Source: Candidatus Parcubacteria bacterium | GTDB taxonomy: Bacteria; Patescibacteriota; Minisyncoccia; UBA6257; HR35 | Reading direction: 5' to 3' | DNA: 64,000 nt | NCBI GenBank assembly: GCA_026004495.1 | Contig: BPJG01000001.1 | Span: 70,470 to 134,469, forward strand | In this document: in pieces, positions 19,465 through 54,759 of the stretch | Layout: every line of letters begins with the position of its first letter | How positions within the stretch are numbered: the first letter of the stretch is position 1 | Program-made: the position numbers and the translations under genes | The notes under the pieces: model-generated | The model's input: only the letters and a program-made list of their open reading frames with translations | The model's database searches: none | Told to the model about the DNA's origin: nothing

Positions 19465-20987
19465 TTTTGTTTAATACCTGCCTTAAAATAAATTGGATCT
19501 TCGTAGGGGTGAAGGAAAATTTCTGGTTCTAATTGTTTTTTATATTTTTCTGAAGCCGTTGAATAAAGATGATTATATTCTGTTGAATGTTTAATTAAGG
19601 AGTTTACTACTTCTTTTTTAATTCGTTCTTTTAATTTAAAAGCCGGTTTTATATTCTTTTTCATCTCTATATGAATATGCAATTTTTGATTGTAATTTTT
19701 ATCATAGACAACTTGCATTGTAAATTTACCTGTAATATATTTTTGTAGTTCTGATTTTAATAAAGCTTGTCTAATATATTCAGGATATAAAATAATTCCA
19801 AACAAGGATACAGTAAAGTCAGATCTTTCATAAACATATACGAATGGCAATTTAAGAATTTTATCTTTTATTTTCAACTTCTCAGATTCTTTAAAGATAT
19901 CGATGCCTACTTCTTTTAATCTTTTTATCATTTCATCAAAATAAATAACCCCTCCATAATCAGGGAAACTATATCTTAGAATAGGAATTGAATCTCCATG
20001 TCCCGAGGCCAAGATTAAGCCATCTTTTTCTTCAAACCAAACAATATAAGGATGGTATTGAGCTAAAGTAGGAGTTCTGGTAGCGTCTCTAAAGAGATTT
20101 CTAAAAACTTTATCTTTTTCAACAGCAATGTGCCTTATTAGGTTGGAAAAAGCTGTTTCATGTGCCATAGTTCCAAGTTCAACTGTACCATAAATATTGA
20201 TATTATCATTAAGCATATTTTCAAGATTGACCTTATTAGCGATATACTTTCTAAAGCTTTCAGGAAAGCTTTCAGCAGCATTTAAGATTCTTATTTTGAA
20301 TTTTTTAAATTGAACCCCGGCTGATACTGCTTCGTCGACTAAATCCTTGACAGAAGGAGGATAACCAACAAGAATTATTTGATCGTAATAAAATGATAGT
20401 TTTTGGAAAGTTTTTAATATTAATTCTTTATTTACTCCTATAGGAGCAACTGTTAATGGATATTTTTCGCTGAGTCTGTAGTAAACATAATAATTATGTA
20501 ACCCCCCAATCCATATACCTAATCCAAAGCTCAAAATAACTAAAGTATTAAATTTATTAATACCCCATTGATTTAAAAAGGCAGTTTCTAGTACATACAA
20601 TCCCTGTTCATCCAAATTTTCTCCTCTAATAAAATAAAAAGGCTCACCAGTAGAGCCCGAAGTTGCTGAAATTGTTGTTAGATTTAAATTTTCATTTGGA
20701 TAGAGTTGTTGATAAGGATATTGGCGAAGATAATTATTTTTATTCATAATTGGTAATTTAGCTAAGTCTCTAAAACCAGTAATTTCTCGATAATTAATTC
20801 CATTTTCTTTTAAGAATTGTTTATAAGCTGGTGTTGTTTCAATGGTAAATTTTACTAGTCTATCTATTTGTTTTTTGCCTAAATTCAACCAATAATCAGG
20901 TGGTCGTGTTTTTAATTCCTTCAATCTTTTATCTATGTTTTTGGGATATTTAAAATATATAAATTTTTTGTCCATTATGTTTCCCAT
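19449..20987 (-). CDS. Adenylate-forming enzyme, phenylacetate-CoA ligase / F390 synthetase (PaaK/CapK-like) family
   Basis: SATSGSTGEPFYF corresponds to the TSG(T/S)TG.P AMP-binding motif of the PaaK family. The size and C-terminal lid region are consistent with that family. Confidence 0.65.
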   Translation of the reverse strand: MGNIMDKKFIYFKYPKNIDKRLKELKTRPPDYWLNLGKKQIDRLVKFTIETTPAYKQFLKENGINYREITGFRDLAKLPIMNKNNYLRQYPYQQLYPNENLNLTTISATSGSTGEPFYFIRGENLDEQGLYVLETAFLNQWGINKFNTLVILSFGLGIWIGGLHNYYVYYRLSEKYPLTVAPIGVNKELILKTFQKLSFYYDQIILVGYPPSVKDLVDEAVSAGVQFKKFKIRILNAAESFPESFRKYIANKVNLENMLNDNINIYGTVELGTMAHETAFSNLIRHIAVEKDKVFRNLFRDATRTPTLAQYHPYIVWFEEKDGLILASGHGDSIPILRYSFPDYGGVIYFDEMIKRLKEVGIDIFKESEKLKIKDKILKLPFVYVYERSDFTVSLFGIILYPEYIRQALLKSELQKYITGKFTMQVVYDKNYNQKLHIHIEMKKNIKPAFKLKERIKKEVVNSLIKHSTEYNHLYSTASEKYKKQLEPEIFLHPYEDPIYFKAGIKQKWVIK

Positions 20988-22072
20988 TGTATAAAGGGTG
21001 GTTTTTTAACCGAGATGGCCGATGGTGGATCAGCTTTTCCTATTCTCATTACTGCGGTTAAAATATAATTATTTTTATCTACTTTAAATAATTCACATAA
21101 TTTTTGATAAGAATTATTAATAATGTTTAGCTCTTCTTCATTAAAAATATTTTTGTTTCCAAAATTAGCCTGTTGCCAAAAGAAAAATATTCCTGTAATT
21201 AGATGACAAGCTAAGTTTAACTTTGTAGCTCTAAGCCAAATATTTTCTATAAGCCTACCAAGATTTATAAATTCCTTATCATTATTAATAATAGAAAAAC
21301 CAATCATTGTGTTAGTAGCTGAATACATTTTAACTGTGTCTTTATAAATAGTTCTTACGATTCCTAATTTCTTCATTAATTTAAAGAAAGTAGTATTCCT
21401 TAAAAGTTTAATCATTAATATTTGAGGTGGTTTAAACTCCATTGTTTTGATATATAATCCCCTTTCTCCCTTTTGAGCTTTTTCTTTATCAAAAATGATC
21501 TCATTAAAAAGCAATTTTCTAAGATGGTCATTGTTAAAATTCAAATAAGTGTCATAAGCCAATAAACTGCCAATTTCATTTATTAAATCACCTTCAATTA
21601 TTGAAACCTTACAATTAGAGAAAAAATTAACTTCATTTAATAAATATTTTTTTTCTTCTTCTGTTAAGGCCTCTTTTTTGTAATGGTTTCTATTGGTTGT
21701 TCTTTTTTTAATATATTCATATAAGTCATCTTTCTCTTCAACGCCTGACTTTTCTAAAATAATTGAGGCTATGATATTATTTTCAAATTTCTCATTTATT
21801 GTTATTATGGGATTTAATTTATAATGCTTGGCTGTAATTACTATATTTTCAATTAAAGCCCCACAAGCAATTAAAGTACCTCTATTATTGTAATTTAATA
21901 TTGGATGATCTTTTTCTGGTAAATATCTTATTTTTATCGTATTTTGAGAAGCAATAAATTCCCATGGTTGAGAATTGCTTCCAGATGGAGCATTTAAGCT
22001 TTCTTTTAAAATATTTTCTATTAAAGATTTTTCAGGCATTTTTATTAATAATATTTTACAGCATATAATCAA
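20975..22072 (-). CDS. Double-domain nitroreductase-family protein
   Basis: NAPSGSNSQPWEF is the nitroreductase signature. A second lobe follows at about residues 200-365. The likely true start is MPEKSL at 22039. Confidence 0.7.
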   Translation of the reverse strand: MIICCKILLIKMPEKSLIENILKESLNAPSGSNSQPWEFIASQNTIKIRYLPEKDHPILNYNNRGTLIACGALIENIVITAKHYKLNPIITINEKFENNIIASIILEKSGVEEKDDLYEYIKKRTTNRNHYKKEALTEEEKKYLLNEVNFFSNCKVSIIEGDLINEIGSLLAYDTYLNFNNDHLRKLLFNEIIFDKEKAQKGERGLYIKTMEFKPPQILMIKLLRNTTFFKLMKKLGIVRTIYKDTVKMYSATNTMIGFSIINNDKEFINLGRLIENIWLRATKLNLACHLITGIFFFWQQANFGNKNIFNEEELNIINNSYQKLCELFKVDKNNYILTAVMRIGKADPPSAISVKKPPFIQWET

Positions 22073-22075
22073 TAT

Positions 22076-23188
22076 TTACAATTTTTTTAATTTTTTGAGG
22101 AAATATTTTTGTTGTTTTTTAAAATCTTTAGGTAAAATCGATAACATTTTATCAATATTTAATAAAATTCTTCCTTCTTTAATTTTTCCACCAAGAATAA
22201 TTTTTTTTGATAAATAAGAAACAGCTACACCGCATAAAGTTGCAGCATTACCTAATTGTGGCCAAGAATAAATTGTTTTTCCAACTTCTATTAATGAATA
22301 TAACATTCTTGGCGTTGCTAAATTAGCGCCTGCAATTTTGGCTGTAATCTTTATCATATCTTGAGGATTTAAATTTTTTAGATTTTCGGAAGATAAATTT
22401 CCCAAAAGACCATGAAGAATAGGATAATTAGGATTTAAATCGTATCTTTCGATGTCAATTAAAATATTATCGGCATGGTCTGTTGCCATAATTACAGGAA
22501 TTCTATATTTTTTAGCTTTCTCTCTTATTTTTATTTTGAGATAGAGATTATCCATTTCTTCAATTAAAACATCAATTTTAGGTTTAAGTAAAAAATTATC
22601 TATATTTTTATAAGTAATACCTTCTGAATAAATTTTCAAGCTTGCATAAGGATTTATTTCATAAATTTGTTGAGCACAATAAATTGCTTTATTAATTCCA
22701 ATCGACGAAATAGGATAACGTAATCTATTTAAATTAGATAAAGAAATTTCATCATTATCAGCTATTTTCATATATCTAGCTCCACCTATCATTGCGAGTG
22801 TTAAGGCTATATGAGAACCCACACTAAGACCTGCTATCCCTATTCTTGATTTATAAAACTTTATTTGTTCATCTTTGGTTAGAAGGTAAATATTTCTCGC
22901 AGTTTTAGTTTCAAAAAATTCTTTTTCATCTAAACAGTGAATTAATTTTTTATTCCAGGGGAAATATATCCATTTACCAACTTTATCTAATGTTTTATTT
23001 TTTAATTTTTTCTTTAAAAAATTTTCAAAATCTTGTTGATATTCTTTGATAAATTTATATTTAGGATTTTTAATTAAAAAATAATCTTCTAATTGTTTTT
23101 CGTAATTATCTATGATTTCTGATGGGTTTAATCTCTTTTTTAATAGCTCTAAACTTATATGATGAGCGTTAAAAATTAATGGCTTCAT
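22076..23188 (-). CDS. ThiF/E1-like adenylyltransferase with a roughly 110-aa N-terminal extension
   Basis: RIGIAGLSVGSHIALTLAMIGG...MKIADNDEISLSNLNRL (Rossmann motif plus the D.D....NL.R E1 motif). No CxxC zinc pairs were seen. Confidence 0.75.
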   Translation of the reverse strand: MKPLIFNAHHISLELLKKRLNPSEIIDNYEKQLEDYFLIKNPKYKFIKEYQQDFENFLKKKLKNKTLDKVGKWIYFPWNKKLIHCLDEKEFFETKTARNIYLLTKDEQIKFYKSRIGIAGLSVGSHIALTLAMIGGARYMKIADNDEISLSNLNRLRYPISSIGINKAIYCAQQIYEINPYASLKIYSEGITYKNIDNFLLKPKIDVLIEEMDNLYLKIKIREKAKKYRIPVIMATDHADNILIDIERYDLNPNYPILHGLLGNLSSENLKNLNPQDMIKITAKIAGANLATPRMLYSLIEVGKTIYSWPQLGNAATLCGVAVSYLSKKIILGGKIKEGRILLNIDKMLSILPKDFKKQQKYFLKKLKKL

Positions 23189-26885: not shown

Positions 26886-27920
26886 CTAATGTGTTCCTTT
26901 TTCTACAATTTCAAAAAGGTTTTTTGAGCAATCAATTACGGCCTTAACACCTAATGGTATTGTAAGTATAGGATCAGTATGGCCTATATCAACATTAGCA
27001 AGAATTGGAAATTTATAACCAGTAGTTCTTATTTTAACTAATCTTATGGCTTCTTTTTTTTCTTTATCAGAATAACCAAAAAACCTTCCAATTATCATTC
27101 CTTTGACTTTTTTAAAAATACCAGATAACTCAAGATCAGTTAAATAAGAATCTATATTTTCTATTCTTTCTCCTCTTGTAAAGTCATTATCACTCTCTGG
27201 TATCTCCCAAAAAAGAATTTTGTTAGTAAAATCAGGCCAATATTTTGTCCCTCTTAAATGCATCATTGAAGTAATACAGCCACCCAAAATTGGTCCTTCT
27301 ACTTTACCTTGTTTTAACCATTGCCAACCTTTGTTCTTTTTCATTTTTCTTGGTCTTCTTAGATCTTCTTTTTTAAACCAATCAAGAATTTCATAGGTCC
27401 AACAAGAAGAAGGCTTAATCACACCGATAGGTTTGTCTTCCATTAATGCTTTTTTAAAATATTCTTCAGTATAAGGGAGTATTCTTGGGTTTTCTGCAAA
27501 TTGAGTAAGAGCTGCTGGCCCATAAAATGTTATTAAATTTGCCTGGGTATAAAACGCAAAATGTAAAACTGTAGCGTCGGAATAACCAACAAAAATTTTT
27601 GGGTTTTTCTTTATGAGATTAAAATCTAAATATTTTAAAACTTGATTAGAGTGATTTCCTCCTATAAAACAAATTATTGCTTTAACTTCTTTATCTTTAA
27701 AAAATAAATTAATATCTTCTGCTCTTTCCTTAGGCGAACCGGCAGTATAACCAGTAATATTTAAAGCATTTTTACCAATTTTAACTTTAAATCCCATATT
27801 GTTTAACATTTTAATAGCTCTTTTTGTTCTGTGTGGTACTAAACCAGCAAGTGGGGCTGATGGACTTATTAATCCGATTGTATCTCCTAATTTAAGTTTT
27901 GGTGGTTTAATTAATTTCAT
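26886..27920 (-). CDS. S66 serine peptidase (LD-carboxypeptidase LdcA / microcin C7 immunity MccF family)
   Basis: LKLGDTIGLISPSAP, VGYSDATVLH (nucleophile Ser), DIGHTDPILTIPLG (catalytic His). Confidence 0.85.
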   Translation of the reverse strand: MKLIKPPKLKLGDTIGLISPSAPLAGLVPHRTKRAIKMLNNMGFKVKIGKNALNITGYTAGSPKERAEDINLFFKDKEVKAIICFIGGNHSNQVLKYLDFNLIKKNPKIFVGYSDATVLHFAFYTQANLITFYGPAALTQFAENPRILPYTEEYFKKALMEDKPIGVIKPSSCWTYEILDWFKKEDLRRPRKMKKNKGWQWLKQGKVEGPILGGCITSMMHLRGTKYWPDFTNKILFWEIPESDNDFTRGERIENIDSYLTDLELSGIFKKVKGMIIGRFFGYSDKEKKEAIRLVKIRTTGYKFPILANVDIGHTDPILTIPLGVKAVIDCSKNLFEIVEKGTH

Positions 27921-42312: not shown

Positions 42313-43518
42313 ATGAGAAAAATAATATTTATTCTAATAGATGGATTAGCAGACATCGCAACCAAAAATACTCCTTTAAGATTGGCATCAAAAATATTTT
42401 TGGATTCACTCAAAGGTAGAATTCATTTATCATATATTTATCCTTTAAAAAAAGAGTATTGGCCTAAAGGTGGTAATTATAGTGTTAGTGGATTAGCTAA
42501 TTTTCACTTGTTAGGATATAAATTAAAGATTAAACAATTTAAACGTGGCCCTTATGAAGCAATTGGAAGTAATATTAAGTTTAAAAATGGTTGGTTAGCC
42601 TTTAGAGTTAACTTTGCAACAGTTGATGAAAAATCATATGTTATAGATAGAAGAGCAGGAAGAAATATTTATGGTTTAGAAAAATTAACTAAAGAAATAA
42701 ATTCAATCAAATTTAAAATACCCTTTGAACTTTATCACATTGCTGGCCATCGAGGAGTTTTAATTTTTAAAACCAAACTTTCAGAAAATATTTCAGAAAA
42801 TGATCCTTATAAAACAAATTTAAGAATAAAAAAGATTAAACCCTCAAAAAAAGATTATTTATCAAAAAAAACAGCTGAATTAATTAATAATTTTTTAGAG
42901 ATAGCTTATGAAAAAATAAAAATTAGCAAAATAAATTTAGAAAGGCAAAAAAGAAATATTTTACCCGCAAATTATCTTTTAATAAGAGAGCCAGGAAATA
43001 AAATATTGAAGTTAAAAAATTTTTTTAGAAAATATAGCTTTAAAAATGGCCTTATAATAGCAACTAATGGAGTTGATAAAGGAACTTGCTTAAGTGTAGG
43101 TTTTAAAAAGTATGACCTTAATTATCCTAACAGTATTATTAATGAATTAAATAATTTAACTAAAGCTATATTTAATTTAGGAGATAAATATCAATTACTC
43201 TATTGTCATCTTAAAAAGGCAGATGAATTAAGTCATGATAAAAATTTCAATGGTAAAAAAGAATTTTTTGAAAAATTTGATGATTTTTTAAAAAAGATAT
43301 TCGCTAAATTTAAAAATGATATTTTTGTTATCACCGGTGATCATATTACTAATACTCAATCCGGCGAACATATGTTTGGTCCAGTACCTTTAATTATTAT
43401 TAACTCAAATCTAATTAATAAACCCAAAGAGATTAGTGAAATTGAAGCTATAAAATTGGGCGAGTATTTTAAAAATACTAATGATTTATGGAAATTTTTA
43501 AAACAAAATGTTAGCTAA
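42313..43518 (+). CDS. apgM: Cofactor-independent phosphoglycerate mutase, ApgM (archaeal) type
   Basis: ILIDGLAD, RGPYEAIGS, AFRVNFATVD...VIDRRAGR, VITGDHITNTQSGEH, GPVPLII. Confidence 0.75.
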   Translation: MRKIIFILIDGLADIATKNTPLRLASKIFLDSLKGRIHLSYIYPLKKEYWPKGGNYSVSGLANFHLLGYKLKIKQFKRGPYEAIGSNIKFKNGWLAFRVNFATVDEKSYVIDRRAGRNIYGLEKLTKEINSIKFKIPFELYHIAGHRGVLIFKTKLSENISENDPYKTNLRIKKIKPSKKDYLSKKTAELINNFLEIAYEKIKISKINLERQKRNILPANYLLIREPGNKILKLKNFFRKYSFKNGLIIATNGVDKGTCLSVGFKKYDLNYPNSIINELNNLTKAIFNLGDKYQLLYCHLKKADELSHDKNFNGKKEFFEKFDDFLKKIFAKFKNDIFVITGDHITNTQSGEHMFGPVPLIIINSNLINKPKEISEIEAIKLGEYFKNTNDLWKFLKQNVS

Positions 43519-45169
43519 AAGAATAGAAAACAGATTAAAAATTTTAGGCAGAAAATTAATTGATAAAGATTTTAATGATTTGAAAAAAAATTTATTTATT
43601 TCTCACTGCGATAATTTAGATCATGGTGACTACTATTCTAATTTTATATTTTTATTAGCAAATAAAACAAAATTAAGCGCTAGGGAAATATTTGAAAAAA
43701 CTAAAGATTATTTAGAAAAACTATCCTATATTAAAAAGGTTGAACTTATTAACGGTTATCTTAATATTTTTATTCAAAAAAAAGTTTTTTTTGAAGACTA
43801 TAAAAAAGTTTTATTAAAAAAAGAAAATTTTTTAAAGAATAACTGGGGAAGAAATAAGAAATTAATAATTGAATATATTTCAGCTAATCCAACTGGACCT
43901 TTACACATAGGTAATGGTAGAGGAGCAGTTTTAGGAGATATTTTAACTAATGTACTTAAACTATCAAACTTTAGGGTAACTAAAGAATATTATGTTAACG
44001 ATAGAGGTAATCAAATAGATTTATTGGTAAAATCTGTTTTACATTATCTAGGTAAAATTTCAAATGAAGAAAATATTTATAAGGGTGATTATCTTAAAGA
44101 ATTTGCCTTTAAATATAAGAAAGAATTAGAAAATATGTCAATTGAAGAAATTAAAAAATTTACCGTTAAATATATCTTATCTAAATTAATTAAACAAACA
44201 TTAAAAAATTTTGGCACTAATTTTGATAATTTTTATTTTGAAACTGATCTTTATTCTAAAAATACAGATAAAGAAGTAATAAAAATTTTAACTAAAAAAG
44301 GATTAATTTATGAAAAAGATGGAGCTACTTGGCTTAACTTAAAAAAATTTAATGAAGCTAAAGATGAAGTATTAATTAAAAATAATGGCGAACAAACTTA
44401 TTTTTTATCTGATATTATTTATAACTATGATAAATTTTTTATCAGAAAGTTTCACTATTCAATTATGATTGTCGGTAGTGATCATCATGATCATATTAGA
44501 AGATTACAAAAAACATTTGAATATATTTTTAATGTTGAAGCCAAAAGATTTAAATTTATTGAATATCAAATGGTTCATCTGTATAAACAGGGTGAAAAAA
44601 TTAAAATGTCAAAAAGAAAGGGTGAATTTGTAACCCTTGATGAATTAATTAAAGAAGTAGGAGTTGAACCAATAAGATTTTATTTTGCTAAATATTCACC
44701 TGAAATTACTATTAATTTTGATTTAAATGTGGTCAAGAAAGAAAATATTAATAATCAAATTTGGTATTTAATGTATACCTACGCCAGATTTAATAAGATT
44801 TTAGAAAAAGCAAAAGAAAAAAAATTTAAATTTGATTATCGACAAAACTTAAAAACTAATCTAACTAAAAGTTTCATTTATTTAATAAATCAAGATAATT
44901 ACTTAAAAATATTTAGAAGAATAAATCAATTTCCTTTAGTAATTTTAAATTCAGCAATCAATCTAAGGCAAAATTATGTAATTAGTTATTTACTAAAATT
45001 AGCAGATGAACTTAATAGTTTTTATGAAAAAGAAATAATAATTAAAGGCGATTCAAAAGAAATTAGATATAAACTTATTTTTATCTATTATCTCAAAAAT
45101 ATTCTTGATTTAGGCCTTCATCTTATTAATATAAAGCCTAAAAAAGAATTGCATAACCCGATAAGTTAA
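43508..45169 (+). CDS. argS: Arginyl-tRNA synthetase
   Basis: SANPTGPLHIGNGRGAVLGD (HIGH region), VGSDHHDH, KMSKRKGEFVTLDEL. Confidence 0.92.
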   Translation: MLAKRIENRLKILGRKLIDKDFNDLKKNLFISHCDNLDHGDYYSNFIFLLANKTKLSAREIFEKTKDYLEKLSYIKKVELINGYLNIFIQKKVFFEDYKKVLLKKENFLKNNWGRNKKLIIEYISANPTGPLHIGNGRGAVLGDILTNVLKLSNFRVTKEYYVNDRGNQIDLLVKSVLHYLGKISNEENIYKGDYLKEFAFKYKKELENMSIEEIKKFTVKYILSKLIKQTLKNFGTNFDNFYFETDLYSKNTDKEVIKILTKKGLIYEKDGATWLNLKKFNEAKDEVLIKNNGEQTYFLSDIIYNYDKFFIRKFHYSIMIVGSDHHDHIRRLQKTFEYIFNVEAKRFKFIEYQMVHLYKQGEKIKMSKRKGEFVTLDELIKEVGVEPIRFYFAKYSPEITINFDLNVVKKENINNQIWYLMYTYARFNKILEKAKEKKFKFDYRQNLKTNLTKSFIYLINQDNYLKIFRRINQFPLVILNSAINLRQNYVISYLLKLADELNSFYEKEIIIKGDSKEIRYKLIFIYYLKNILDLGLHLINIKPKKELHNPIS

Positions 45170-45634
45170 ATAAAAACATATAAAGGCTATAATAATTCCA
45201 AAAATTATATCAATTGGCCAATGCATTAATGATAACCAACTTAAAATTGCTATCAAAATTGATAAAATAAATAAAAAGAATCCTAATTGAATATTAGAAA
45301 TTAAAGTTACGAATGAAATAGCAAAGGATAAGGTTGTGTGTCTTGAGGGGAAACTATCTAATCTTTGCTCCTCAAAAGGAAAAAAATAACTTATTGGCCT
45401 TAAGGACTTAAATTGACCATTGATTAAAATAATAAAAATAAAAGAAAAGAAAAGAACTATTACTAACTCTAAAAGGTAGATTTTATTTAATTTTTTATTA
45501 TGAATAAAAGATAAAATAATATTACCAAAAGAAAAAATGAAAACTAATCCAAGTAAAAAATCTCTTAAAACATCAAAAAAGTATATTAAGTTATAATTAT
45601 CTTTTAAAATTAAAAAAATGAATTCTGTGGCCAT
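45110..45634 (-). CDS. PAP2 family phosphatase (membrane)
   Basis: KSLRP...SFPSRHTT...(H) PAP2 motifs and 5 TM helices. It overlaps the argS 3' end by 60 nt. Confidence 0.7.
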   Translation of the reverse strand: MATEFIFLILKDNYNLIYFFDVLRDFLLGLVFIFSFGNIILSFIHNKKLNKIYLLELVIVLFFSFIFIILINGQFKSLRPISYFFPFEEQRLDSFPSRHTTLSFAISFVTLISNIQLGFFLFILSILIAILSWLSLMHWPIDIIFGIIIAFICFYLTYRVMQFFFRLYINKMKA

Positions 45635-47108
45635 TAATAAAATTATAAATATATTTTTAAAAAATTTAACTTTTAATCAAACAATAATTAAAAATAGTTT
45701 TTGGCTTATTGCTGGTAAATTAATAAGTGGAATATTAAGGGCTTTATTAGTTATTTTTTCAGCCAGATTATTAGGAACAAGTGAATATGGAAGTTTTTCT
45801 TTGGCAATGAATTTTGTTCTCCTATTTTCATTCTTGCCCGAATTAGGATTAACCTCAATTTTAACTAGAGAATTATCTAAAACTGAAGACAAAAAAGAAA
45901 GACAAATTATTTTTAATAATATATTCATAATCTCTTTAATCTTAAGCTTCATATCTTATTTATTGATATTTTTTTTAGGACAATTATTTTTAAAAGACGA
46001 ATTAGCTAAAATAATTTTACCCATATTATCTTTAATGTTAATTTTTGATATCTTTAGGGAATTTTCTTATGCTATTTATAGATCAGAACTAAAAAGTGAA
46101 TTACAAGGAATTTTTCATTTTCTAACAAATCTTTTGCTTTTTATTGGTGGTTTAATAAGCTTATATTTATTTCGGAAAGCAATTTATTTATCGTGGGCCT
46201 ATTTAATAACCATAACTATTGGATTTATAATAAGCAATATTTTTCTTATTGACTACTTTAAAAAATTTAAATTAGTTCTTGATTATAAAAAATGGATATA
46301 TTATTTTAATTCATCCTGGCCAATCGCTATTGCTAATGCTTTATACTTATTATTACTTTTTATAGATTCAATAATATTAGGTTGGTATTTTCCCAGTAAC
46401 ATAGTGGGAATTTATACCTCTTCAGTCAAAGTAAATGAATTTTTAATAATTTTTCCCACAGGAATTTCGTTAGCTCTTTTACCTATATTTTCAAAAAATA
46501 CTCTAGATAAAGAAAAATTAAAAACTACTTTAGAGCTAGGCCTAAGATTAACCTATATTTTAATTTTACCAATAATATTTGGCGGCATTTTACTTTCTGA
46601 AAATTTAATTAATTTTATATTTGGAAAAGAATACTCGGATTCACATTATGCCTTTAAAATTTTAATTCCTTCACTAATAGCTACTTCAATTTTTATGATA
46701 TTATCCCAACTATTAATTGCTCTAAACAAAAGAAAAGAATTATTAATATACGAGTTTTTTATATTTTTGATCAATCTAATAGGTAATATAATATTAATTC
46801 CATCTTTAAGCTTTATGGGTGCTGCCTATATGACAACCATAAGTAATTTCTTAGGGCTAATATTAATCATTTTAATAACCAATAAATATTTAAATTTTGA
46901 TATCTATTTCGGTATAAAAAAACCCTTTTTAGCTTCGGTTTTGATGAGTTTAATAATTTTAGCTTTAAATAAAATTAACTTTTTATTAGCAATTATAGTG
47001 GGCAGCATTTTATATTTTATAGTACTAATTTTAATAAGAGAAGAACTTATAATTAAAATAATTAATAACATTATAACTATCATTAAGTTTAAAAAATATG
47101 ATAATTAG
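45618..47108 (+). CDS. MOP-superfamily flippase (Wzx/polysaccharide biosynthesis protein-like)
   Basis: About 14 TM helices. The N-terminus NSFWLIAGKLISGILRALLVIFSARLLGTSEYGSFSLAMNF is typical of Wzx-type flippases. Confidence 0.7.
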   Translation: MNSVAINKIINIFLKNLTFNQTIIKNSFWLIAGKLISGILRALLVIFSARLLGTSEYGSFSLAMNFVLLFSFLPELGLTSILTRELSKTEDKKERQIIFNNIFIISLILSFISYLLIFFLGQLFLKDELAKIILPILSLMLIFDIFREFSYAIYRSELKSELQGIFHFLTNLLLFIGGLISLYLFRKAIYLSWAYLITITIGFIISNIFLIDYFKKFKLVLDYKKWIYYFNSSWPIAIANALYLLLLFIDSIILGWYFPSNIVGIYTSSVKVNEFLIIFPTGISLALLPIFSKNTLDKEKLKTTLELGLRLTYILILPIIFGGILLSENLINFIFGKEYSDSHYAFKILIPSLIATSIFMILSQLLIALNKRKELLIYEFFIFLINLIGNIILIPSLSFMGAAYMTTISNFLGLILIILITNKYLNFDIYFGIKKPFLASVLMSLIILALNKINFLLAIIVGSILYFIVLILIREELIIKIINNIITIIKFKKYDN

Positions 47109-48666
47109 TTTATTATTATCCTTAATATTTTTTTTAGTTATTGGTATAAATTTTTTAAGATTAGTCCAAATAAAAGATTATTTTTTTCCATCAATCTTAG
47201 CCTATTTTGATTATCCTTCAAATTATCGTCATTTTTTTAGACTATATGAATTAATTTTAATTATAATTTGGTTATTTTTAATTTTTTTTTCTTTTAAAAA
47301 TGGGAAGATATATATTAATGAAAATATTTTATTGTTAATTTTATTAATTTTTGGCATTTTAATATATTTAAGAAAAGATCAAATAAAAAAAATAAGGTGG
47401 AATCTTAAAGGTTTATTTATTTTTTATTTAACTACTTTAATTAACTACAGAATTTTATCAGCAACCAATAATGATTTAACTATTGTCATCATTCTTTTAA
47501 CATCAGCAATTCAATTTTCAATAGTAATTTTTTCGACTTTTATAGCTAATATTATTACTAAAGTTTATGCTGAATATTTATTTAAGATAACAAAAAATAA
47601 AATTTCAAAATGGCTAAAAAAAGATAAAAATAGATTAGTTATTGGTATCTCAGGTAGCTATGGGAAAACATCGACTAAAGAAATCTTATCACAACTTTTA
47701 GAAGAAAAATTTAAAGTTTTAAAATCACCACTTAGACTTAATGCCGAAATAGGTTTAGCAAAATTTATTTTAAAGAGTCAATTAAAAAATTATGATATCT
47801 TAGTTTTAGAATTAGGATCCAGAAAGCTGGGTGAAATTTCAAAAATGGTAGATATTTTTCAGCCTAAATGTGTTTTTTTAACAGGCCTAGGTCCACAACA
47901 CATTGCTACTTTTGGCTCCTTTGAAAATATGATTAAGGGAGAAACTGAAATATTTAAAAAAATAGATGATAGTGGGATAGCATTTTTAAATATTAAGGAT
48001 AGATGGATAAAAGAATATGAAAAAAAATTGAATATAAAAAATAAATATCTTTATGGTGACAAGGATGGGAATTTTTATTTTAAAGAAGAAATTTTAACTT
48101 TAGATGGCTCAGAATTTATTTTTGTCTATCCCGAAGGAGAAGAAAAATTATTTACCAATATCGTTGGTAATCAATTTTTAGAAAACTTATGTGGAGCCTT
48201 GGGATTGTGTTATATATTAGGCATTCAACCCTATCAATTAAAAGAAAAATTAAAAAATCTTAAATTACTTTCAAATCAATTTGAAATCGTAAAAAGAGCC
48301 AATCCTTTAATTATTAATGATTCTTATAATGCTAATTTAATTGGGGTTCAAAGGGGAATTGAATTTTTTAATAAAATTTTTAAGGGTAAAAAAATATTAT
48401 TTTTTGGAGGAATATTAGAATTAGGAGAGGAAACAGAAAAAATTTACCAACAATTAATAGAATATTTTAAAATATTTGATTTGATAATTTTAACTTTTAA
48501 TGATTTTAGTGAAATATTCCTTAAAAATATTGAAAATGAAAAAATTTTAATTTATGATAATCAAGAATTAGATAAAATTATAAAATTTTATGATTTAAAC
48601 GATTTGGGATTATTAATTTTAGGAAGAATTCCAGAAAAATTATTAAATAGAATTAAAGAATTATGA
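47098..48666 (+). CDS. MurF-like Mur ligase with the canonical N-terminal domain replaced by about 170 aa of TM helices
   Basis: VIGISGSYGKTSTKEIL (P-loop), LVLELGSRKLGEI, and NDSYNAN in the C-terminal domain. Residues 1-170 form 4-5 hydrophobic helices. Confidence 0.7.
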   Translation: MIISLLLSLIFFLVIGINFLRLVQIKDYFFPSILAYFDYPSNYRHFFRLYELILIIIWLFLIFFSFKNGKIYINENILLLILLIFGILIYLRKDQIKKIRWNLKGLFIFYLTTLINYRILSATNNDLTIVIILLTSAIQFSIVIFSTFIANIITKVYAEYLFKITKNKISKWLKKDKNRLVIGISGSYGKTSTKEILSQLLEEKFKVLKSPLRLNAEIGLAKFILKSQLKNYDILVLELGSRKLGEISKMVDIFQPKCVFLTGLGPQHIATFGSFENMIKGETEIFKKIDDSGIAFLNIKDRWIKEYEKKLNIKNKYLYGDKDGNFYFKEEILTLDGSEFIFVYPEGEEKLFTNIVGNQFLENLCGALGLCYILGIQPYQLKEKLKNLKLLSNQFEIVKRANPLIINDSYNANLIGVQRGIEFFNKIFKGKKILFFGGILELGEETEKIYQQLIEYFKIFDLIILTFNDFSEIFLKNIENEKILIYDNQELDKIIKFYDLNDLGLLILGRIPEKLLNRIKEL

Positions 48667-49901
48667 ACAAAAAATTGATTTCGACAGATTTTTTCCCAAA
48701 TTTTGAAGATGATGATTATTTATTGATAAAAAAAATTTTAAAAAATAAGAACAGCTGGCAAGAGGGAAGGGAATTAGAAATTTTAGAATATGAATTAAAA
48801 AAATTTTTTCCCAAAGGAGAAATATTTTTATTTACTACCGAAAGAGGTGCCTTAGAATATTTTTTGAAATTTTATTTAAAAAAAACAAAACATAAAAAAG
48901 TAGCTACCCAAGCCTTTACTTGTTTTGTAATACCCAAATCAATTATCAATGCTGGTGGAATTCCTATTTATATTGATATATCTGAAGGTTATTTAAATTT
49001 TACTCAAAAAGAATTAGAAAAAGTATTTAAAAATAACCAAGATATTTCAGTGATTATTCTACAAAATACATTTGGGGTTCCTAACGATTTAAATAAAATT
49101 TTAGGCTTTTTAAAAGACAAAAATTGTTTAATTATTGAAAACTTAGCTCATAGTTTTGGAGCTAAATTTAACAGTTATTATTTAGGAAATTTTGGTGATA
49201 TTGCCTTAATTAGTTTTGGTAGAAGCAAGGTTATATCTTCAATTTTTGGAGGCGTATTAATAATTAATGACAAACAATTAGCTGAGGAATTTAAAAACTA
49301 CTATAAAGAATTAGACTATCCTTCAAAATCATTCATTATTAAATGCTTGATCTATGCCTTAAATATGGGACATTTAAGGAATAATTTTACTATTTATGGT
49401 AAATATTTAATGTATTTAATTAGAAAATTAAATTTAGCTGTTTTAGAAATTTCAACAAAAGAAAAAAATGGTTTAACAGAAAATTATTCAATTAAAAAAT
49501 TACCTAATTCTTTTGCTATTATAGCGCTCAATCAATTAAAAAAAATTTTTAAATTCAGTGATCATCGTAAAAAAATTTCTAAAATTTATATTAAAGAAGG
49601 GTTAATACCTTATGGCGAAGTTTATAATGAAGCTGAATATTATTACTTAAGATTACCCCTAACAAATGTTAAACCACAAAAATTAATTGATAGCCTTAAA
49701 AAATATAACATCTATTTAGGTAATTGGTATAATTCAGCCCTAGCTCCACTTACACGAAGATTAGACAGATTTGGTTATTATTATGGAATGTGTCCTAATG
49801 CAGAAAAATTAGCTTTATCAATTTATAATTTACCTACCAACATTTTAACAACCCCAGATGATGCTTATTTAATAGTAGAATTAATTAAAAAATGGAATTA
49901 A
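48663..49901 (+). CDS. DegT/DnrJ/EryC1/StrS-family PLP-dependent aminotransferase
   Basis: The fold-type I layout includes ALISFGRSKVISS (Schiff-base Lys region). The start overlaps the upstream stop (ATGA). Confidence 0.65.
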   Translation: MNKKLISTDFFPNFEDDDYLLIKKILKNKNSWQEGRELEILEYELKKFFPKGEIFLFTTERGALEYFLKFYLKKTKHKKVATQAFTCFVIPKSIINAGGIPIYIDISEGYLNFTQKELEKVFKNNQDISVIILQNTFGVPNDLNKILGFLKDKNCLIIENLAHSFGAKFNSYYLGNFGDIALISFGRSKVISSIFGGVLIINDKQLAEEFKNYYKELDYPSKSFIIKCLIYALNMGHLRNNFTIYGKYLMYLIRKLNLAVLEISTKEKNGLTENYSIKKLPNSFAIIALNQLKKIFKFSDHRKKISKIYIKEGLIPYGEVYNEAEYYYLRLPLTNVKPQKLIDSLKKYNIYLGNWYNSALAPLTRRLDRFGYYYGMCPNAEKLALSIYNLPTNILTTPDDAYLIVELIKKWN

Positions 49902-50905
49902 AAGATATATCAGAAAAAGATTATAAAAATTTTATTAAAGAACAGAAACCAATATCTTTTCTCCATAATTATGAATGGGGTGAGGTAGAAAAAAAATTAG
50001 GTAAAGAATTTTTTAGATTTGGAATTTATAAATCTCAAACTCTTATTGCTGTAGTTCAAATTATAGGTCATAAATCTAAGAGAGGTAATTTTTTAACAAT
50101 TTCTCATGGTCCTATAATTAATCCAAATTTTAAAGAAAATTTCTTAGAAATAATTGATTTAATTATAGAAAAAATTAAAAAATTAAATTTGAAAAAAAAA
50201 TATTCATTTCTAAGAGTAAATTTTTTATTTGAAAATTCAGAAGAAATTTTAAAAAATTTGATAGTCAGAAAATTTAAATTAGCTCCACGCTGGTTTGTAA
50301 GTGAAAATTTTTGGATTAAAGAAATAGATAAAACAGAAGAAGATTTACTAAAAGAAATGGATAATAATCACCGAAAGCAAATTTTAGATTCACTAACAAA
50401 GCCATATTTAGAAATAGAGAAATCAGATAAAATTGAAACAATAAAAATATTTTGGGATTTATATAAGAATTTAGCTAAAGAAAAAAATTTTATTCCGTAT
50501 AGCTACAATCTTATAAAAAATGAATTTGAAATATTTACTAAAGAAGATAAAGCCCTCTGGTATTTAGGTAAAATTGAAAATAAGTATTATTCAGCAGCTC
50601 TAATAATTTTTGATAATAATTTTGCCTATTATCATCATTCTGCTTCTATAAAAATAAAAGAGCCATTAAACTATAAATTGCAATGGCAAATTATCTTAGA
50701 CGCTAGACAAAGAGGGTGTAAATTTTATAATATGTGGGGAATAACAAATCAAGGTAAAGAACATCCTTGGTATGGTTTAACTCAATTTAAAAAAGGTTTT
50801 GGTGGAAAAATGATTAATTTCTTGCCGACATTAGATTTTCGCTTAAACTGGAAATATTATTTAACTTATGCTTACGAAAAAATATATAAAAAAATAAAAA
50901 ATTAA
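49892..50905 (+). CDS. FemAB/FemX-family peptidyltransferase (aminoacyl-tRNA-dependent peptidoglycan branch formation)
   Basis: FLHNYEWGEVEKKLG..., YYHHSAS, and YNMWGI...GLTQFKKGFGG are typical FemAB features. Confidence 0.7.
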   Translation: MELKDISEKDYKNFIKEQKPISFLHNYEWGEVEKKLGKEFFRFGIYKSQTLIAVVQIIGHKSKRGNFLTISHGPIINPNFKENFLEIIDLIIEKIKKLNLKKKYSFLRVNFLFENSEEILKNLIVRKFKLAPRWFVSENFWIKEIDKTEEDLLKEMDNNHRKQILDSLTKPYLEIEKSDKIETIKIFWDLYKNLAKEKNFIPYSYNLIKNEFEIFTKEDKALWYLGKIENKYYSAALIIFDNNFAYYHHSASIKIKEPLNYKLQWQIILDARQRGCKFYNMWGITNQGKEHPWYGLTQFKKGFGGKMINFLPTLDFRLNWKYYLTYAYEKIYKKIKN

Positions 50906-54144: not shown

Positions 54145-54759
54145 ATGTCAATTGCCGAAAATCTAGTCATTAATAATAATAAATATTTAAAGTATATGGT
54201 TAAAAAGGGAGATAATTTAGAAAAAATAGCTAAATCATTTGGTTTAAGCGTAAAAGAAATAAAAAATATTAACAATTTAAAAAATGATAAGATAATAGCA
54301 GGAAAAATATTATTAATACCATCAAACGTAAAAATAACGGCTAAAATTAATAATAATGAAAAAAAGTATAAAATTAAACCAGAATATGTATCAGCCCTAA
54401 CAGAAATTAATGGTTTATTAATACCAACAGATGGTATTAACCAAAAACATGTCCATTCCAACAATGGAGTAGATATTTCAACAGATTGTGGAATGCCAGT
54501 ATATTCAGCTGCAGATGGAATAGTTATTAAAGCCGAATCAAGCGGTTATAATGGTGGTTATGGAAATTATATACTTATCCAACACAGAAATTTTGAAACA
54601 TTATATGGTCATTTGTCAAGAGTTTTTGTAAATTCAGGAGATAATGTTTCTAAGGGAGAATTAATAGGATTAGTAGGCAATACAGGATATACAATTGGAT
54701 TAACAGGTTGCCATCTTCATTTTGAAACCCGTGGCTTAAAAAACCCTTTATCTAAATAA
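54145..54759 (+). CDS. LysM plus M23 peptidase; the frame is open upstream to 53878 and includes a signal anchor but no canonical start
   Basis: YMVKKGDNLEKIAKSFGLSVKEIKNINNL (LysM). GVDIS...ILIQHRNFETLYGHL...GNTGYTIGLTGCHLHFE (M23). Upstream in frame lies EIKKISRLLVFILILTIYFTINFDKESS... Confidence 0.8.
   Translation: MSIAENLVINNNKYLKYMVKKGDNLEKIAKSFGLSVKEIKNINNLKNDKIIAGKILLIPSNVKITAKINNNEKKYKIKPEYVSALTEINGLLIPTDGINQKHVHSNNGVDISTDCGMPVYSAADGIVIKAESSGYNGGYGNYILIQHRNFETLYGHLSRVFVNSGDNVSKGELIGLVGNTGYTIGLTGCHLHFETRGLKNPLSK

What the first reader, a model, noticed from the sequence alone, without database searches (positions are those of the whole stretch)
45110..50905. Envelope gene cluster with a membrane-anchored MurF-like ligase lacking the canonical N-terminal domain
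This cluster comprises PAP2 phosphatase (minus strand), a Wzx-type flippase, a MurF-like ligase, a DegT-type aminotransferase and a FemAB-type peptidyltransferase. The four plus-strand genes overlap at their ends (47098/47108, 48663/48666, 49892/49901).

The Mur ligase retains the ATP P-loop (GSYGKTSTKE) and the central and C-terminal domains. Its first roughly 170 residues, however, are 4-5 TM helices instead of the soluble UDP-MurNAc-peptide-binding domain.

Combined with an amino-sugar aminotransferase, a tRNA-dependent Fem transferase and a flippase, this suggests assembly of a peptide-decorated, lipid-linked glycan at the membrane. That would be distinct from the classical cytoplasmic MurC-F pathway.
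Basis: partly seen in the sequence, partly recalled or inferred. Interest (0 to 1): 0.5.

Follow-up and report, generated by a model that had tools for sequence, protein, structure and literature searches.

The report
Membrane-anchored MurF cell-wall gene cluster
The cluster is real, but its odd ligase is most likely not part of a separate pathway: it appears to be the ordinary last-step peptidoglycan ligase (MurF) of many CPR bacteria and gut Clostridia, with its soluble N-terminal domain replaced by a conserved five-helix membrane module that I could not find described in the literature.

Summary
Observation confirmed. All five ORFs, their overlaps and their family assignments are as stated. 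The ligase (47098-48666) has a MurF-type core, and in place of MurF domain 1 it has five transmembrane helices.

Interpretation only partly supported.
- The membrane module is a dedicated domain. It has 1,073 cluster representatives, always N-terminal to this ligase.
- It has conserved cytoplasm-facing motifs and no solved structural relative.
- Orthologues sit in the murF slot of CPR dcw clusters (ftsI...murC-murB-murA...hydrolase-LIGASE-DegT-FemAB-mraY-ftsW-murG-ftsQAZ). In Clostridia they sit next to ddl.
- So this is most likely the housekeeping MurF, tethered at the membrane beside MraY, and not a pathway distinct from MurC-F.

In CPR the module is hydrolase-TM-MurF-DegT-like-FemAB. It usually lies just downstream of SerRS, and it never co-occurs locally with Ddl (0 of 125 loci). 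The DegT-like protein belongs to a CPR-specific subfamily. The window's clade lacks the hydrolase and instead has ArgRS, a PAP2 phosphatase and a MOP flippase upstream.

Not settled: whether a canonical murF, ddl or alr exists elsewhere in this genome, and what DegT does.

Verdict: a new variant of a known kind, moderately interesting.

The parts
47098..48666 (+). Membrane-anchored MurF-type ligase, 522 aa
   Evidence: Pfam Mur_ligase_M and Mur_ligase_C. NCBIfam best hit is murF TIGR01143, 204.5 bits, profile positions 63-393 of 418. Best PDB sequence hit is E. coli MurF 1gg4, E 1.6e-30. Best fold hits are MurF 4qf5, 3zl8 and 1gg4. The DSYNAN motif is at aa 408.
47098..47625 (+). N-terminal five-helix membrane module (aa 1-176) replacing MurF domain 1. 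It carries cytoplasm-facing conserved residues Q24, K26, D27 (consensus E) and Y28; I99, N102 and K104 (consensus P, T, K); T165 (consensus A) and K168.
47626..48666 (+). MurF catalytic core: central ATP-binding domain (P-loop GSYGKT at aa 186) and C-terminal domain
48663..49901 (+). DegT-like PLP-dependent protein of a CPR-specific subfamily. The Schiff-base Lys189 is kept, but the canonical PLP-N1 Asp is Asn (IENLAH).
   Evidence: Pfam. Best PDB hit is a sugar aminotransferase, 7b0m, 3e-11, with the Lys motif aligned. The family is discrete: scores are 140 bits or more, then drop to 66 bits or less. Invariant residues and the Asp-to-Asn change. The gene immediately upstream is the TM-ligase in 52 of 80 independent loci.
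49892..50905 (+). FemX-like (FemAB family) aminoacyl-tRNA-dependent peptidyltransferase, 337 aa
   Evidence: Pfam FemAB, 70.5 bits. S. aureus FemX 6snr, E 7.8e-12. It follows DegT directly in 42 of 80 loci.
45618..47108 (+). MOP-superfamily flippase (Polysacc_synt / MurJ / SpoVB-like). Candidate Lipid II flippase; specificity not established.
   Evidence: Pfam Polysacc_synt 104.5 bits, MurJ 42.6 bits. All NCBIfam equivalogs are far below cut-off. No PDB sequence hit. Linked to the ligase only in the window's own clade: L001, L088, L090.
45110..45634 (-). Small PAP2 phosphatase, probable undecaprenyl-diphosphate phosphatase (carrier-lipid recycling)
   Evidence: Pfam PAP2, 36.1 bits. NCBIfam best hit is undecaprenyl-diphosphate phosphatase PRK11837, 31 bits, far below cut-off. 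Weak match to Aquifex LpxE 6ebu, with PSxH and HxxxD aligned but the C1 Lys and C3 Arg not aligned. Same position in L088 and L090.
43508..45169 (+). Arginyl-tRNA synthetase. A conserved upstream neighbour in this clade, occupying the place where most CPR loci have SerRS. Context only; functional membership is uncertain.
   Evidence: Pfam labels for the orthologous gene in L001 and L088. ArgRS lies upstream in 3 CPR-type loci, and SerRS in 35 of 39.

Best explanation
The ligase is the organism's MurF: the enzyme that adds the C-terminal dipeptide (normally D-Ala-D-Ala) to UDP-MurNAc-tripeptide. It occurs here in a widespread variant form, in which the soluble N-terminal domain 1 has been replaced by a five-helix membrane module. 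The N-terminus is outside and the catalytic core is in the cytoplasm. The last cytoplasmic step of peptidoglycan precursor synthesis is therefore held at the membrane, next to MraY, which uses its product.

The conserved residues of the membrane module all face the cytoplasm. They probably either help hold the nucleotide-sugar end of the substrate, which is the job of the lost domain 1, or dock the enzyme to MraY.

The surrounding genes form a peptidoglycan-precursor and lipid-carrier module:
- The FemX-like transferase adds a tRNA-delivered amino acid as a branch on the stem peptide.
- The MOP flippase probably exports the lipid-linked precursor.
- The PAP2 enzyme probably recycles undecaprenyl diphosphate.
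- The DegT-like PLP protein is an obligate partner of the ligase and Fem in CPR, but its substrate is unknown.

Shown here: domain architecture, topology, MurF-type core, family-wide conservation of the membrane module, and synteny with dcw and ddl.
Inferred: substrate, the role of the membrane module, and the roles of DegT, the flippase and PAP2.
For: MurF identity of the core:
- NCBIfam murF scores 204.5 bits, against 65.5 bits or less for the monofunctional MurE, MurD and MurC models.
- PDB sequence and fold searches rank MurF first.
- The DSYNAN and N-x-E-I-G motifs align with E. coli MurF.

Membrane module:
- AlphaFold model with pLDDT 93.
- Positive-inside rule across 43 sequences.
- 1,073 representatives, always fused N-terminally to this ligase.
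- About 115 of the top 120 homologues and 78 of 80 GTDB loci carry 3-5 TM helices before GSYGKT.

Pathway membership:
- The gene occupies the murF slot, immediately upstream of mraY, in the dcw clusters of L002, L005 and L006. No other MurF is present there, and L006 has exactly four Mur ligases.
- It is adjacent to ddl in 66 loci, mostly Clostridia. This mirrors the ddl-murF operon of Bacillus and Staphylococcus (my knowledge).
- L088 places the window's gene order directly after mraZ-mraW-ftsL-ftsI.
- The only canonical MurF among the top 120 relatives is from Aquificota, not CPR.

Module:
- DegT to ligase linkage in 52 of 80 loci, and DegT to Fem in 42 of 80.
- Fem matches S. aureus FemX.
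Against: - The protein scores below the NCBIfam murF cut-off (204.5 vs 288.6). It also lacks domain 1, which in canonical MurF contacts the UDP part of the substrate (my knowledge), so the same substrate is not guaranteed.
- In this window the gene is not in a dcw cluster, and no mraY, ddl or other mur gene lies within the 64 kb.
- I could not scan the rest of the genome, or any whole Clostridial genome, for a second canonical murF.
- In CPR the ligase is never next to ddl. It is next to DegT-FemAB instead (0 of 125 loci have both). This leaves room for a different dipeptide or a different supply route.
- DegT has no role in the textbook pathway.
- The PAP2 motifs are only partly canonical.
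Confidence: 0.7

Rival explanations
1. The membrane module changes the substrate. The ligase acts at the membrane on a lipid-linked intermediate (undecaprenyl-PP-MurNAc-tripeptide, with or without GlcNAc) and not on the UDP-linked one. The dipeptide would then be added after MraY, much as MurT/GatD and staphylococcal FemX act on Lipid II.
For: - The UDP-contacting domain 1 is entirely absent.
- It is replaced by a conserved polytopic module whose conserved residues sit at the cytoplasmic membrane face.
- The module is never found detached from the ligase.
- The module has no known fold relative, so its function is open.
Against: - The gene keeps the classical position upstream of mraY.
- No direct evidence exists for lipid-substrate binding.
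- MraY prefers the pentapeptide nucleotide (my knowledge).
- A simple tether combined with MraY docking explains the same data.
Confidence: 0.12
2. In CPR the DegT-like and FemAB pair functionally takes the place of Ddl. It would supply or remodel the C-terminal part of the stem peptide through an aminoacyl-tRNA-dependent, PLP-assisted route. Ser-tRNA is a possible donor, given the adjacent SerRS. The TM-ligase would then add something other than Ddl-made D-Ala-D-Ala.
For: - Ddl and FemAB are mutually exclusive next to the ligase (66 Ddl-type loci vs 59 Fem-type loci, none with both).
- DegT-FemAB sits exactly where ddl sits in Firmicutes.
- SerRS lies within 4.5 kb upstream in 35 of 39 CPR-type loci and in 0 of 66 Ddl-type loci.
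- The CPR dcw clusters examined contain murA, murB, murC, murD, murI, mraY and murG but no ddl.
- DegT is a discrete CPR subfamily with altered PLP-site chemistry in the window's clade.
- PLP enzymes acting on aminoacyl-tRNA have precedent in SelA and SepCysS (my knowledge).
Against: - The absence of ddl was tested only within about 10 kb of the ligase. ddl may lie elsewhere in these genomes.
- Known Fem enzymes add branches to an existing stem peptide. They do not make the MurF dipeptide (my knowledge).
- The DegT fold is typical of nucleotide-sugar aminotransferases.
- The SerRS synteny may simply be inherited gene order within related CPR lineages.
- In the window's clade the neighbouring synthetase is ArgRS, not SerRS.
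Confidence: 0.1
3. One reading: the five genes build a separate peptide-decorated, lipid-linked glycan (not peptidoglycan). An amino sugar made by DegT would be acylated by Fem and by the Mur-like ligase, then exported by a Wzx flippase.
For: - DegT-family enzymes normally make amino sugars.
- The flippase's best Pfam model is Polysacc_synt.
- In this window the cluster is detached from the other mur genes.
Against: - The ligase-DegT-Fem trio lies inside dcw clusters between murA/glmS and mraY in diverse CPR, and next to ftsQ in many others.
- The ligase core is specifically MurF-like.
- The cluster contains no glycosyltransferase, no sugar dehydratase and no initiating phosphotransferase.
- The flippase and PAP2 are linked to the trio only in one small clade.
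Confidence: 0.06

Closest known systems
Canonical MurF (UDP-MurNAc-tripeptide:D-Ala-D-Ala ligase; e.g. E. coli 1GG4, T. maritima 3ZL8, A. baumannii 4QF5)
   Same: - Central ATP-binding domain and C-terminal domain.
- P-loop, and the DSYNAN and N-x-E-I-G motifs.
- Best sequence and fold match.
- Orthologues occupy the murF slot in dcw clusters or sit beside ddl.
   Different: - The soluble N-terminal domain 1 is absent. A five-helix membrane module with its own conserved motifs replaces it.
- The protein scores below the TIGR01143 cut-off.
- It is usually translationally coupled to an alpha/beta-hydrolase gene, though not in this window.
MurE-MurF chimeras (Bordetella pertussis 8F5D; PMC10214165)
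   Same: Another natural MurF in which the N-terminal 'cap' is missing and its hydrophobic patch is covered by a fused partner. This shows that the MurF N-terminus is evolutionarily replaceable.
   Different: The partner there is the soluble MurE. Here it is an integral membrane module. That survey screened only Mur proteins longer than 600 aa and does not mention transmembrane forms.
CapB/PgsB poly-gamma-glutamate synthetase and MurT (of MurT/GatD)
   Same: Members of the Mur-ligase superfamily that work at the membrane. CapB has an N-terminal anchor, and MurT acts on Lipid II (my knowledge, and PMC3266927 as listed).
   Different: Neither was among the sequence hits. The core here is specifically MurF-like. 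CapB has a single anchor helix, not a conserved five-helix module (my knowledge).
FemX / Fem transferases (S. aureus FemX 6SNR; Weissella viridescens FemX)
   Same: The window's 337-aa protein matches the FemAB family and FemX in both halves. Its size is that of the short FemX type, which lacks the coiled-coil insert (my knowledge).
   Different: The acceptor, the amino acid and the tRNA used are all unknown. In CPR the protein is fixed in a ligase-DegT-Fem module, frequently downstream of SerRS.
DegT/DnrJ/EryC1 nucleotide-sugar aminotransferases (PseC, ArnB, perosamine synthetase)
   Same: Same fold family, with the PLP-binding lysine conserved.
   Different: - A discrete CPR-only subfamily, at 70 bits or less against NCBIfam equivalogs whose cut-offs are about 375-650 bits.
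- The PLP-N1 Asp is Asn in the window's clade.
- It is embedded in a peptidoglycan gene context and not in a sugar pathway.

Membership tests
MurF (UDP-MurNAc-tripeptide--D-Ala-D-Ala ligase) | Central Mur-ligase ATP-binding domain with a P-loop | tested here: met
   Pfam Mur_ligase_M 114.8 bits at aa 184-370. GSYGKT at aa 186.
MurF (UDP-MurNAc-tripeptide--D-Ala-D-Ala ligase) | C-terminal domain with the MurF-type DDSYNAN motif, and closest similarity to MurF among the Mur ligases | tested here: met
   - Mur_ligase_C scores 35.8 bits.
- DSYNAN at aa 408 aligns with DDSYNAN of E. coli MurF.
- The murF model scores 204.5 bits against 65.5 bits or less for the monofunctional MurE, MurD and MurC models.
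- MurF structures rank first.

MurF (UDP-MurNAc-tripeptide--D-Ala-D-Ala ligase) | Soluble N-terminal domain 1 (contacts the UDP end of the substrate) | tested here: not met
   The alignment to E. coli MurF begins at chain residue 88 = query residue 167. The murF profile is matched only from position 63. In the model, aa 1-175 are membrane helices.
MurF (UDP-MurNAc-tripeptide--D-Ala-D-Ala ligase) | Score at or above the curated family cut-off (NCBIfam TIGR01143) | tested here: not met
   204.5 bits against a cut-off of 288.6. The shortfall is consistent with the missing domain 1.
MurF (UDP-MurNAc-tripeptide--D-Ala-D-Ala ligase) | Genomic placement with the peptidoglycan genes (dcw cluster before mraY, or with ddl) | tested here: met
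   Met for orthologues: L002, L005, L006 and L088 (dcw clusters), and 66 loci with ddl. Not met in the window itself, which has no other mur gene, mraY or ddl.
MurF (UDP-MurNAc-tripeptide--D-Ala-D-Ala ligase) | It is the only MurF of the genome, and it adds D-Ala-D-Ala to UDP-MurNAc-tripeptide | not testable with these tools
   Only 64 kb of a 634-kb contig is available, and there is no whole-genome access. Enzymology is needed.
DegT/DnrJ/EryC1/StrS PLP-dependent aminotransferases | Family profile above cut-off, and the Schiff-base lysine | tested here: met
   Pfam 102.5 bits against a cut-off of 19.8. K189 is invariant in 19 aligned members and aligns with the Lys of 7b0m.
DegT/DnrJ/EryC1/StrS PLP-dependent aminotransferases | Aspartate pairing with the PLP pyridine nitrogen (the I-E-D-x-A-H motif) | tested here: not met
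   The motif is IENLAH (or IENLTH in three) in the window's protein and in all 31 other clade members where it could be read. It is IEDxxH in the 10 more distant members. The role of this Asp is from my knowledge of ArnB and PseC.
FemAB aminoacyl-tRNA-dependent peptidyltransferases | Family profile above cut-off; use of aminoacyl-tRNA as donor | tested here: inconclusive
   The profile criterion is met: Pfam 70.5 bits against a cut-off of 24, and FemX 6snr at 7.8e-12. There is no NCBIfam hit. tRNA dependence and the acceptor cannot be tested here.
MurJ / Wzx (MOP flippases) | Assignment to a specific flippase equivalog (MurJ, Wzx, SpoVB, TuaB) | tested here: not met
   Superfamily membership is clear from Polysacc_synt at 104.5 bits. 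All equivalog models fall far below their cut-offs, for example murJ at 29.8 vs 235.6 and O-glycosylation Wzx at 33.8 vs 720.
PAP2 undecaprenyl-diphosphate phosphatase (BcrC / YbjG / LpxE-like) | PAP2 profile and the three catalytic motifs (KX6RP, PSGH, SRX5HX3D) | tested here: inconclusive
   Pfam PAP2 scores 36.1 bits against a cut-off of 27.2. PSRH and H-x3-D are present and RP is present. The C1 Lys and C3 Arg do not align with those of LpxE. The best NCBIfam model, undecaprenyl-diphosphate phosphatase, scores far below its cut-off.

The most novel reading that the evidence does not exclude
Two readings are not excluded, separately or together.

(a) The membrane module converts MurF into an enzyme that works on a lipid-linked precursor, or in an obligate complex with MraY.

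(b) In CPR the DegT-like and FemAB pair stands in for the absent neighbouring Ddl. This pair is fixed downstream of the ligase, is usually downstream of SerRS, and never occurs with Ddl. It would give an aminoacyl-tRNA-dependent route to the stem-peptide terminus.

Either reading would mean that a large part of bacterial diversity, including CPR and for (a) abundant gut Clostridia, finishes the peptidoglycan precursor differently from the textbook pathway.
Probability: 0.15. Interest if true: 0.85.

Novelty: new variant of a known kind. Interest (0 to 1): 0.58.

Why it matters
Textbooks treat MurC-F as soluble cytoplasmic enzymes, and MurF inhibitors and structures all concern the three-domain soluble form. 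This work indicates otherwise for a large group of organisms.

- A MurF form with a dedicated five-helix membrane module in place of the substrate-holding N-terminal domain is widespread. It was found in more than 1,000 sequence clusters and more than 580 species-level genomes.
- By synteny, though unconfirmed at whole-genome level, it looks like the housekeeping MurF in Patescibacteria/CPR and in many Clostridia. The Clostridia include cultured gut genera (Butyrivibrio, Waltera, Christensenella) that could be tested directly.
- It offers a natural case of physical coupling between the last soluble step and the first membrane step (MraY) of cell-wall synthesis.
- The membrane fold has no solved relative.
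- The CPR-specific partner set (alpha/beta-hydrolase, DegT-like PLP protein, FemX-like transferase, SerRS neighbourhood) hints at unexplored peptidoglycan chemistry in organisms whose walls have hardly been analysed.

For annotation, these proteins are currently named inconsistently as 'hypothetical', 'Mur ligase family protein' or 'MurF'.

Tried and rejected
1. Looked for a second Mur ligase, ddl, mraY or the alpha/beta-hydrolase in the window (tblastn and phmmer). None was found, so the window alone cannot show whether a canonical murF exists.
2. Pfam scans of 20 other window ORFs. They found no dcw genes, only scattered peptidoglycan hydrolases.
3. Tried to walk beyond the window with the look-up of encoding contigs on edge genes. 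One returned only a 2-kb Logan contig and the other was not on record.
4. Spent the last large protein search on a Saccharibacteria Ddl, to see whether Parcubacteria or KatS3mg094 have Ddl. It returned only near-identical gut Saccharibacteria and about 60%-identical unnamed proteins, so it was uninformative.
6. Six literature searches for a transmembrane or membrane-bound MurF and for CPR peptidoglycan genes. No description was found. A seventh search, on Ddl in CPR, returned nothing, and an eighth produced the Bulleidia paper. The Mur-chimera survey (PMC10214165) screened only proteins longer than 600 aa, and the Bulleidia paper (PMC12786226) does not mention TM forms.
7. Considered CapB/PgsB, MurT, Mpl, CfbE and the pseudomurein ligases as the true family. 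All were rejected because they score far below MurF or not at all.
8. Considered that the TM region could be an artefact of a wrong start codon or a fused upstream ORF. Rejected because the region is conserved in more than 1,000 homologues and modelled with high confidence.
9. PDB search with the alpha/beta-hydrolase partner. It gave only generic esterase, arylesterase and dehalogenase relatives, with no functional clue.

Full report
**Observation**

The window is very AT-rich, at about 22% G+C. The ligase is identical to a protein from Candidatus Parcubacteria bacterium KatS3mg094, on a 634-kb contig.

All family assignments pass Pfam's curated thresholds:
- PAP2.
- A MOP flippase (Polysacc_synt 104.5 bits, MurJ 42.6 bits).
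- Mur_ligase_M and Mur_ligase_C.
- DegT_DnrJ_EryC1.
- FemAB.

The ligase's best NCBIfam model is murF, at 204.5 bits. The match covers only profile positions 63-393 of 418 and lies below the 288.6-bit cut-off. Monofunctional MurE, MurD and MurC models score 65.5 bits or less.

**The N-terminus is a real, dedicated membrane domain**

- Hydropathy analysis finds 4-5 hydrophobic segments in aa 1-158.
- An AlphaFold model built on 43 homologues is very confident (pLDDT 93.4, pTM 0.88). It shows helices 2-25, 49-68, 75-91, 103-122 and 136-175, and the last helix runs into the first strand of the ligase core.
- Across the 43 sequences, loops 1 and 3 and the post-TM5 linker carry 4.7, 3.1 and 6.1 Lys+Arg on average. 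Loops 2 and 4 carry 0.8 and 0.5. The N-terminus is therefore outside and the ATP-dependent core is cytoplasmic.
- Every well-conserved position in the module lies at the cytoplasmic face. These are Q24 and Y28 (invariant), K26 and E27, P99, T102 and K104, and A165 and K168.
- A profile of the module alone, searched against 1.84 billion representatives, finds 1,073 proteins (480 at E of 1e-10 or better). The match always starts at the N-terminus, in proteins of about 490-585 aa or in short fragments. The module therefore occurs only fused to this ligase.
- Pfam and NCBIfam have no model for it.

**The core is MurF**

- phmmer against PDB ranks E. coli MurF first (1gg4, 1.6e-30). Query residues 167-458 align to chain residues 88-380, so domain 1 is unmatched. 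The DSYNAN and N-x-E-I-G motifs align.
- Foldseek ranks MurF structures first (4qf5 at E 2.5e-25, target TM-score 0.72; then 3zl8 and 1gg4), ahead of MurE and MurC.

**Distribution**

About 115 of the top 120 homologues carry 3-5 TM helices followed by GSYGKT. The best 80 loci are mostly Clostridia:
- Lachnospiraceae and Oscillospiraceae.
- Ruminiclostridium and Christensenella.
- Cultured Butyrivibrio and Waltera intestinalis.

Saccharibacteria, Magasanikbacteria and other Patescibacteria are also represented. Nearly all of these loci carry the TM module. The only canonical MurF in the top 120 is from Aquificota.

**Genomic context decides the interpretation**

In three CPR loci (L002, L005 Gottesmanbacteria, L006) the order is: ftsI, MurE-like, murC, murB, murA, (glmU, glmS), alpha/beta-hydrolase, TM-ligase, DegT, FemAB, (dagK), mraY, (murI, murD), ftsW, murG, ftsQ, ftsA, ftsZ. 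The TM-ligase fills the murF slot. No other MurF is present, and L006 has exactly four Mur ligases.

In Firmicutes the conserved operon is hydrolase, TM-ligase, ddl. Sixty-six loci show this arrangement. It parallels the ddl-murF operons of Bacillus and Staphylococcus (my knowledge).

In a 54%-identical relative of the window's protein (L088), the window's own order is preserved: apgM, argS, PAP2(-), flippase, ligase, DegT, Fem. There it follows mraZ, mraW, ftsL and ftsI directly.

Orthologues with the extension do sit in standard dcw clusters. The 'only murF' half could not be tested for this genome.

**The CPR module**

Starting from the DegT side, 80 independent metagenome loci were examined. 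The TM-ligase is immediately upstream of DegT in 52. FemAB is immediately downstream in 42. Most other cases are contig ends or have one small ORF in between, which is PaaX_M-like in L164.

The DegT-like protein forms a discrete CPR subfamily. Scores are 140 bits or more within the family, then drop to 66 bits or less for generic DegT enzymes. Its Schiff-base lysine is invariant. The Asp that normally pairs with the PLP ring nitrogen is fixed as Asn in the window's clade and retained as Asp in more distant members.

Fem matches S. aureus FemX.

Among 125 classified loci, 66 have Ddl and 59 have FemAB beside the ligase. None has both.

In CPR-type loci a seryl-tRNA synthetase lies within 4.5 kb upstream in 35 of 39 eligible cases. 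In Ddl-type loci the figure is 0 of 66. In the window's clade ArgRS holds that position.

The alpha/beta-hydrolase is nearly universal upstream of the ligase elsewhere. It is absent from the window and its sister genomes, where a PAP2 and a MOP flippase are found instead. The hydrolase resembles only generic esterases.

**Mechanism**

Most likely (confidence about 0.7), the protein is the housekeeping MurF, tethered in the membrane next to MraY. The cytoplasm-facing conserved residues of the module either substitute for domain 1 in holding the nucleotide end of the substrate or dock the enzyme to MraY.

The neighbouring genes fit a peptidoglycan-precursor module:
- Fem adds a tRNA-delivered branch residue.
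- The MOP flippase and PAP2 serve export and carrier-lipid recycling. PAP2's best NCBIfam model is undecaprenyl-diphosphate phosphatase. It has a weak match to LpxE, and its catalytic motifs are only partly canonical.
- DegT's role is unknown.

Rivals that remain open:
- Action on a lipid-linked tripeptide intermediate (about 0.12).
- DegT and Fem replacing Ddl through a tRNA-dependent route (about 0.10).
This one is disfavoured by the dcw synteny and by the lack of any glycosyltransferase, dehydratase or priming transferase in the cluster.

**Novelty**

Six literature searches found no description of a transmembrane MurF. The 2023 survey of Mur chimeras considered only proteins longer than 600 aa and does not mention transmembrane forms. 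Databases name these proteins inconsistently.

I rate this a new variant of a known kind: a known enzyme and pathway, with an undescribed, widespread architecture and partner set. The library searched excludes most subscription journals, so prior description elsewhere cannot be ruled out.

**Limits**

- I had no whole-genome access, so I could not test for a second murF, ddl or alr.
- The loci sampled are the best-scoring ones and are phylogenetically related, so the counts are not independent events.
- All functional statements beyond domain identity, topology and synteny are inference.

Noticed in passing
L164:6380-7666 and 34 other CPR loci; window 43508-45169: A seryl-tRNA synthetase lies within 4.5 kb upstream of the TM-ligase in 35 of 39 eligible CPR-type loci, and in 0 of 66 Ddl-type loci. 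A class II Asp/Lys/Asn-type synthetase often accompanies it. In the window's clade ArgRS is in that place. This may hint at the Fem donor tRNA, or may only be inherited synteny.
   Followed up: partly
L002:9282-10004, L003:9243-10004 and most other loci; absent from the window: An esterase-like alpha/beta-hydrolase of about 220-260 aa sits immediately upstream of the TM-ligase in nearly all Firmicutes and CPR loci, with its stop overlapping the ligase start in the loci inspected (L002, L003, L005). The window and its sister genomes lack it. Its function is unknown; the best PDB hit is 5jd6 at 1e-17.
   Followed up: partly
window 48663-49901 (codons about 158-163): In the DegT-like protein the canonical I-E-D-x-A-H aspartate is Asn (IENLAH, or IENLTH in three). 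This holds in all 32 members of the window's clade where the motif could be read. The 10 more distant members keep Asp, and the Schiff-base Lys is invariant. The clade may have altered PLP chemistry.
   Followed up: yes
window 2073-3941 (+): A 622-aa NDH-2-type pyridine-nucleotide-disulphide oxidoreductase carries a PD-(D/E)XK nuclease-superfamily domain (PDDEXK_3, 112.8 bits) inserted at aa 197-309, in the middle of the oxidoreductase.
   Followed up: no
window 17144-23188 (-): A run of co-oriented genes: a ThiF-like E1 enzyme, a 365-aa nitroreductase-family protein, a 512-aa protein with a weak AMP-binding C-terminal domain, a SAM methyltransferase and a histidine kinase. It resembles a small-molecule or peptide modification cluster.
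   Followed up: no
window 8232-9650 (-), 26886-27920 (-), 54145-54759 (+): Peptidoglycan-remodelling enzymes are scattered through the window: an M23 peptidase fused to an Amidase_2 domain, an S66 LD-carboxypeptidase, and a probable LysM/M23 peptidase (assigned from its orthologue in L001). The LD-carboxypeptidase implies tetrapeptide stems and so a normal D-Ala-terminated precursor.
   Followed up: no
window 45110-45634 (-): The PAP2 ORF overlaps the 3' end of argS by 60 nt and the flippase start by 17 nt. Its C1 Lys and C3 Arg do not align with those of Aquifex LpxE, while PSxH and HxxxD do. Its true start and catalytic competence are therefore uncertain.
   Followed up: partly
L031:5010-6251: The Ddl next to the TM-ligase in a gut Saccharibacteria genome is about 60% identical to a very large set of Ddl proteins of about 400 aa. 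Its hydrolase-ligase-ddl operon has the Firmicutes layout. This may reflect lateral transfer between Clostridia and Saccharibacteria.
   Followed up: no
L164:11285-11809 and similar ORFs of about 165-285 aa in many L090-L169 loci: A small ORF is often inserted between DegT-like and FemAB in CPR loci. In L164 it has a PaaX central (Cas2-like) domain at 72.6 bits. It is absent from the window.
   Followed up: no
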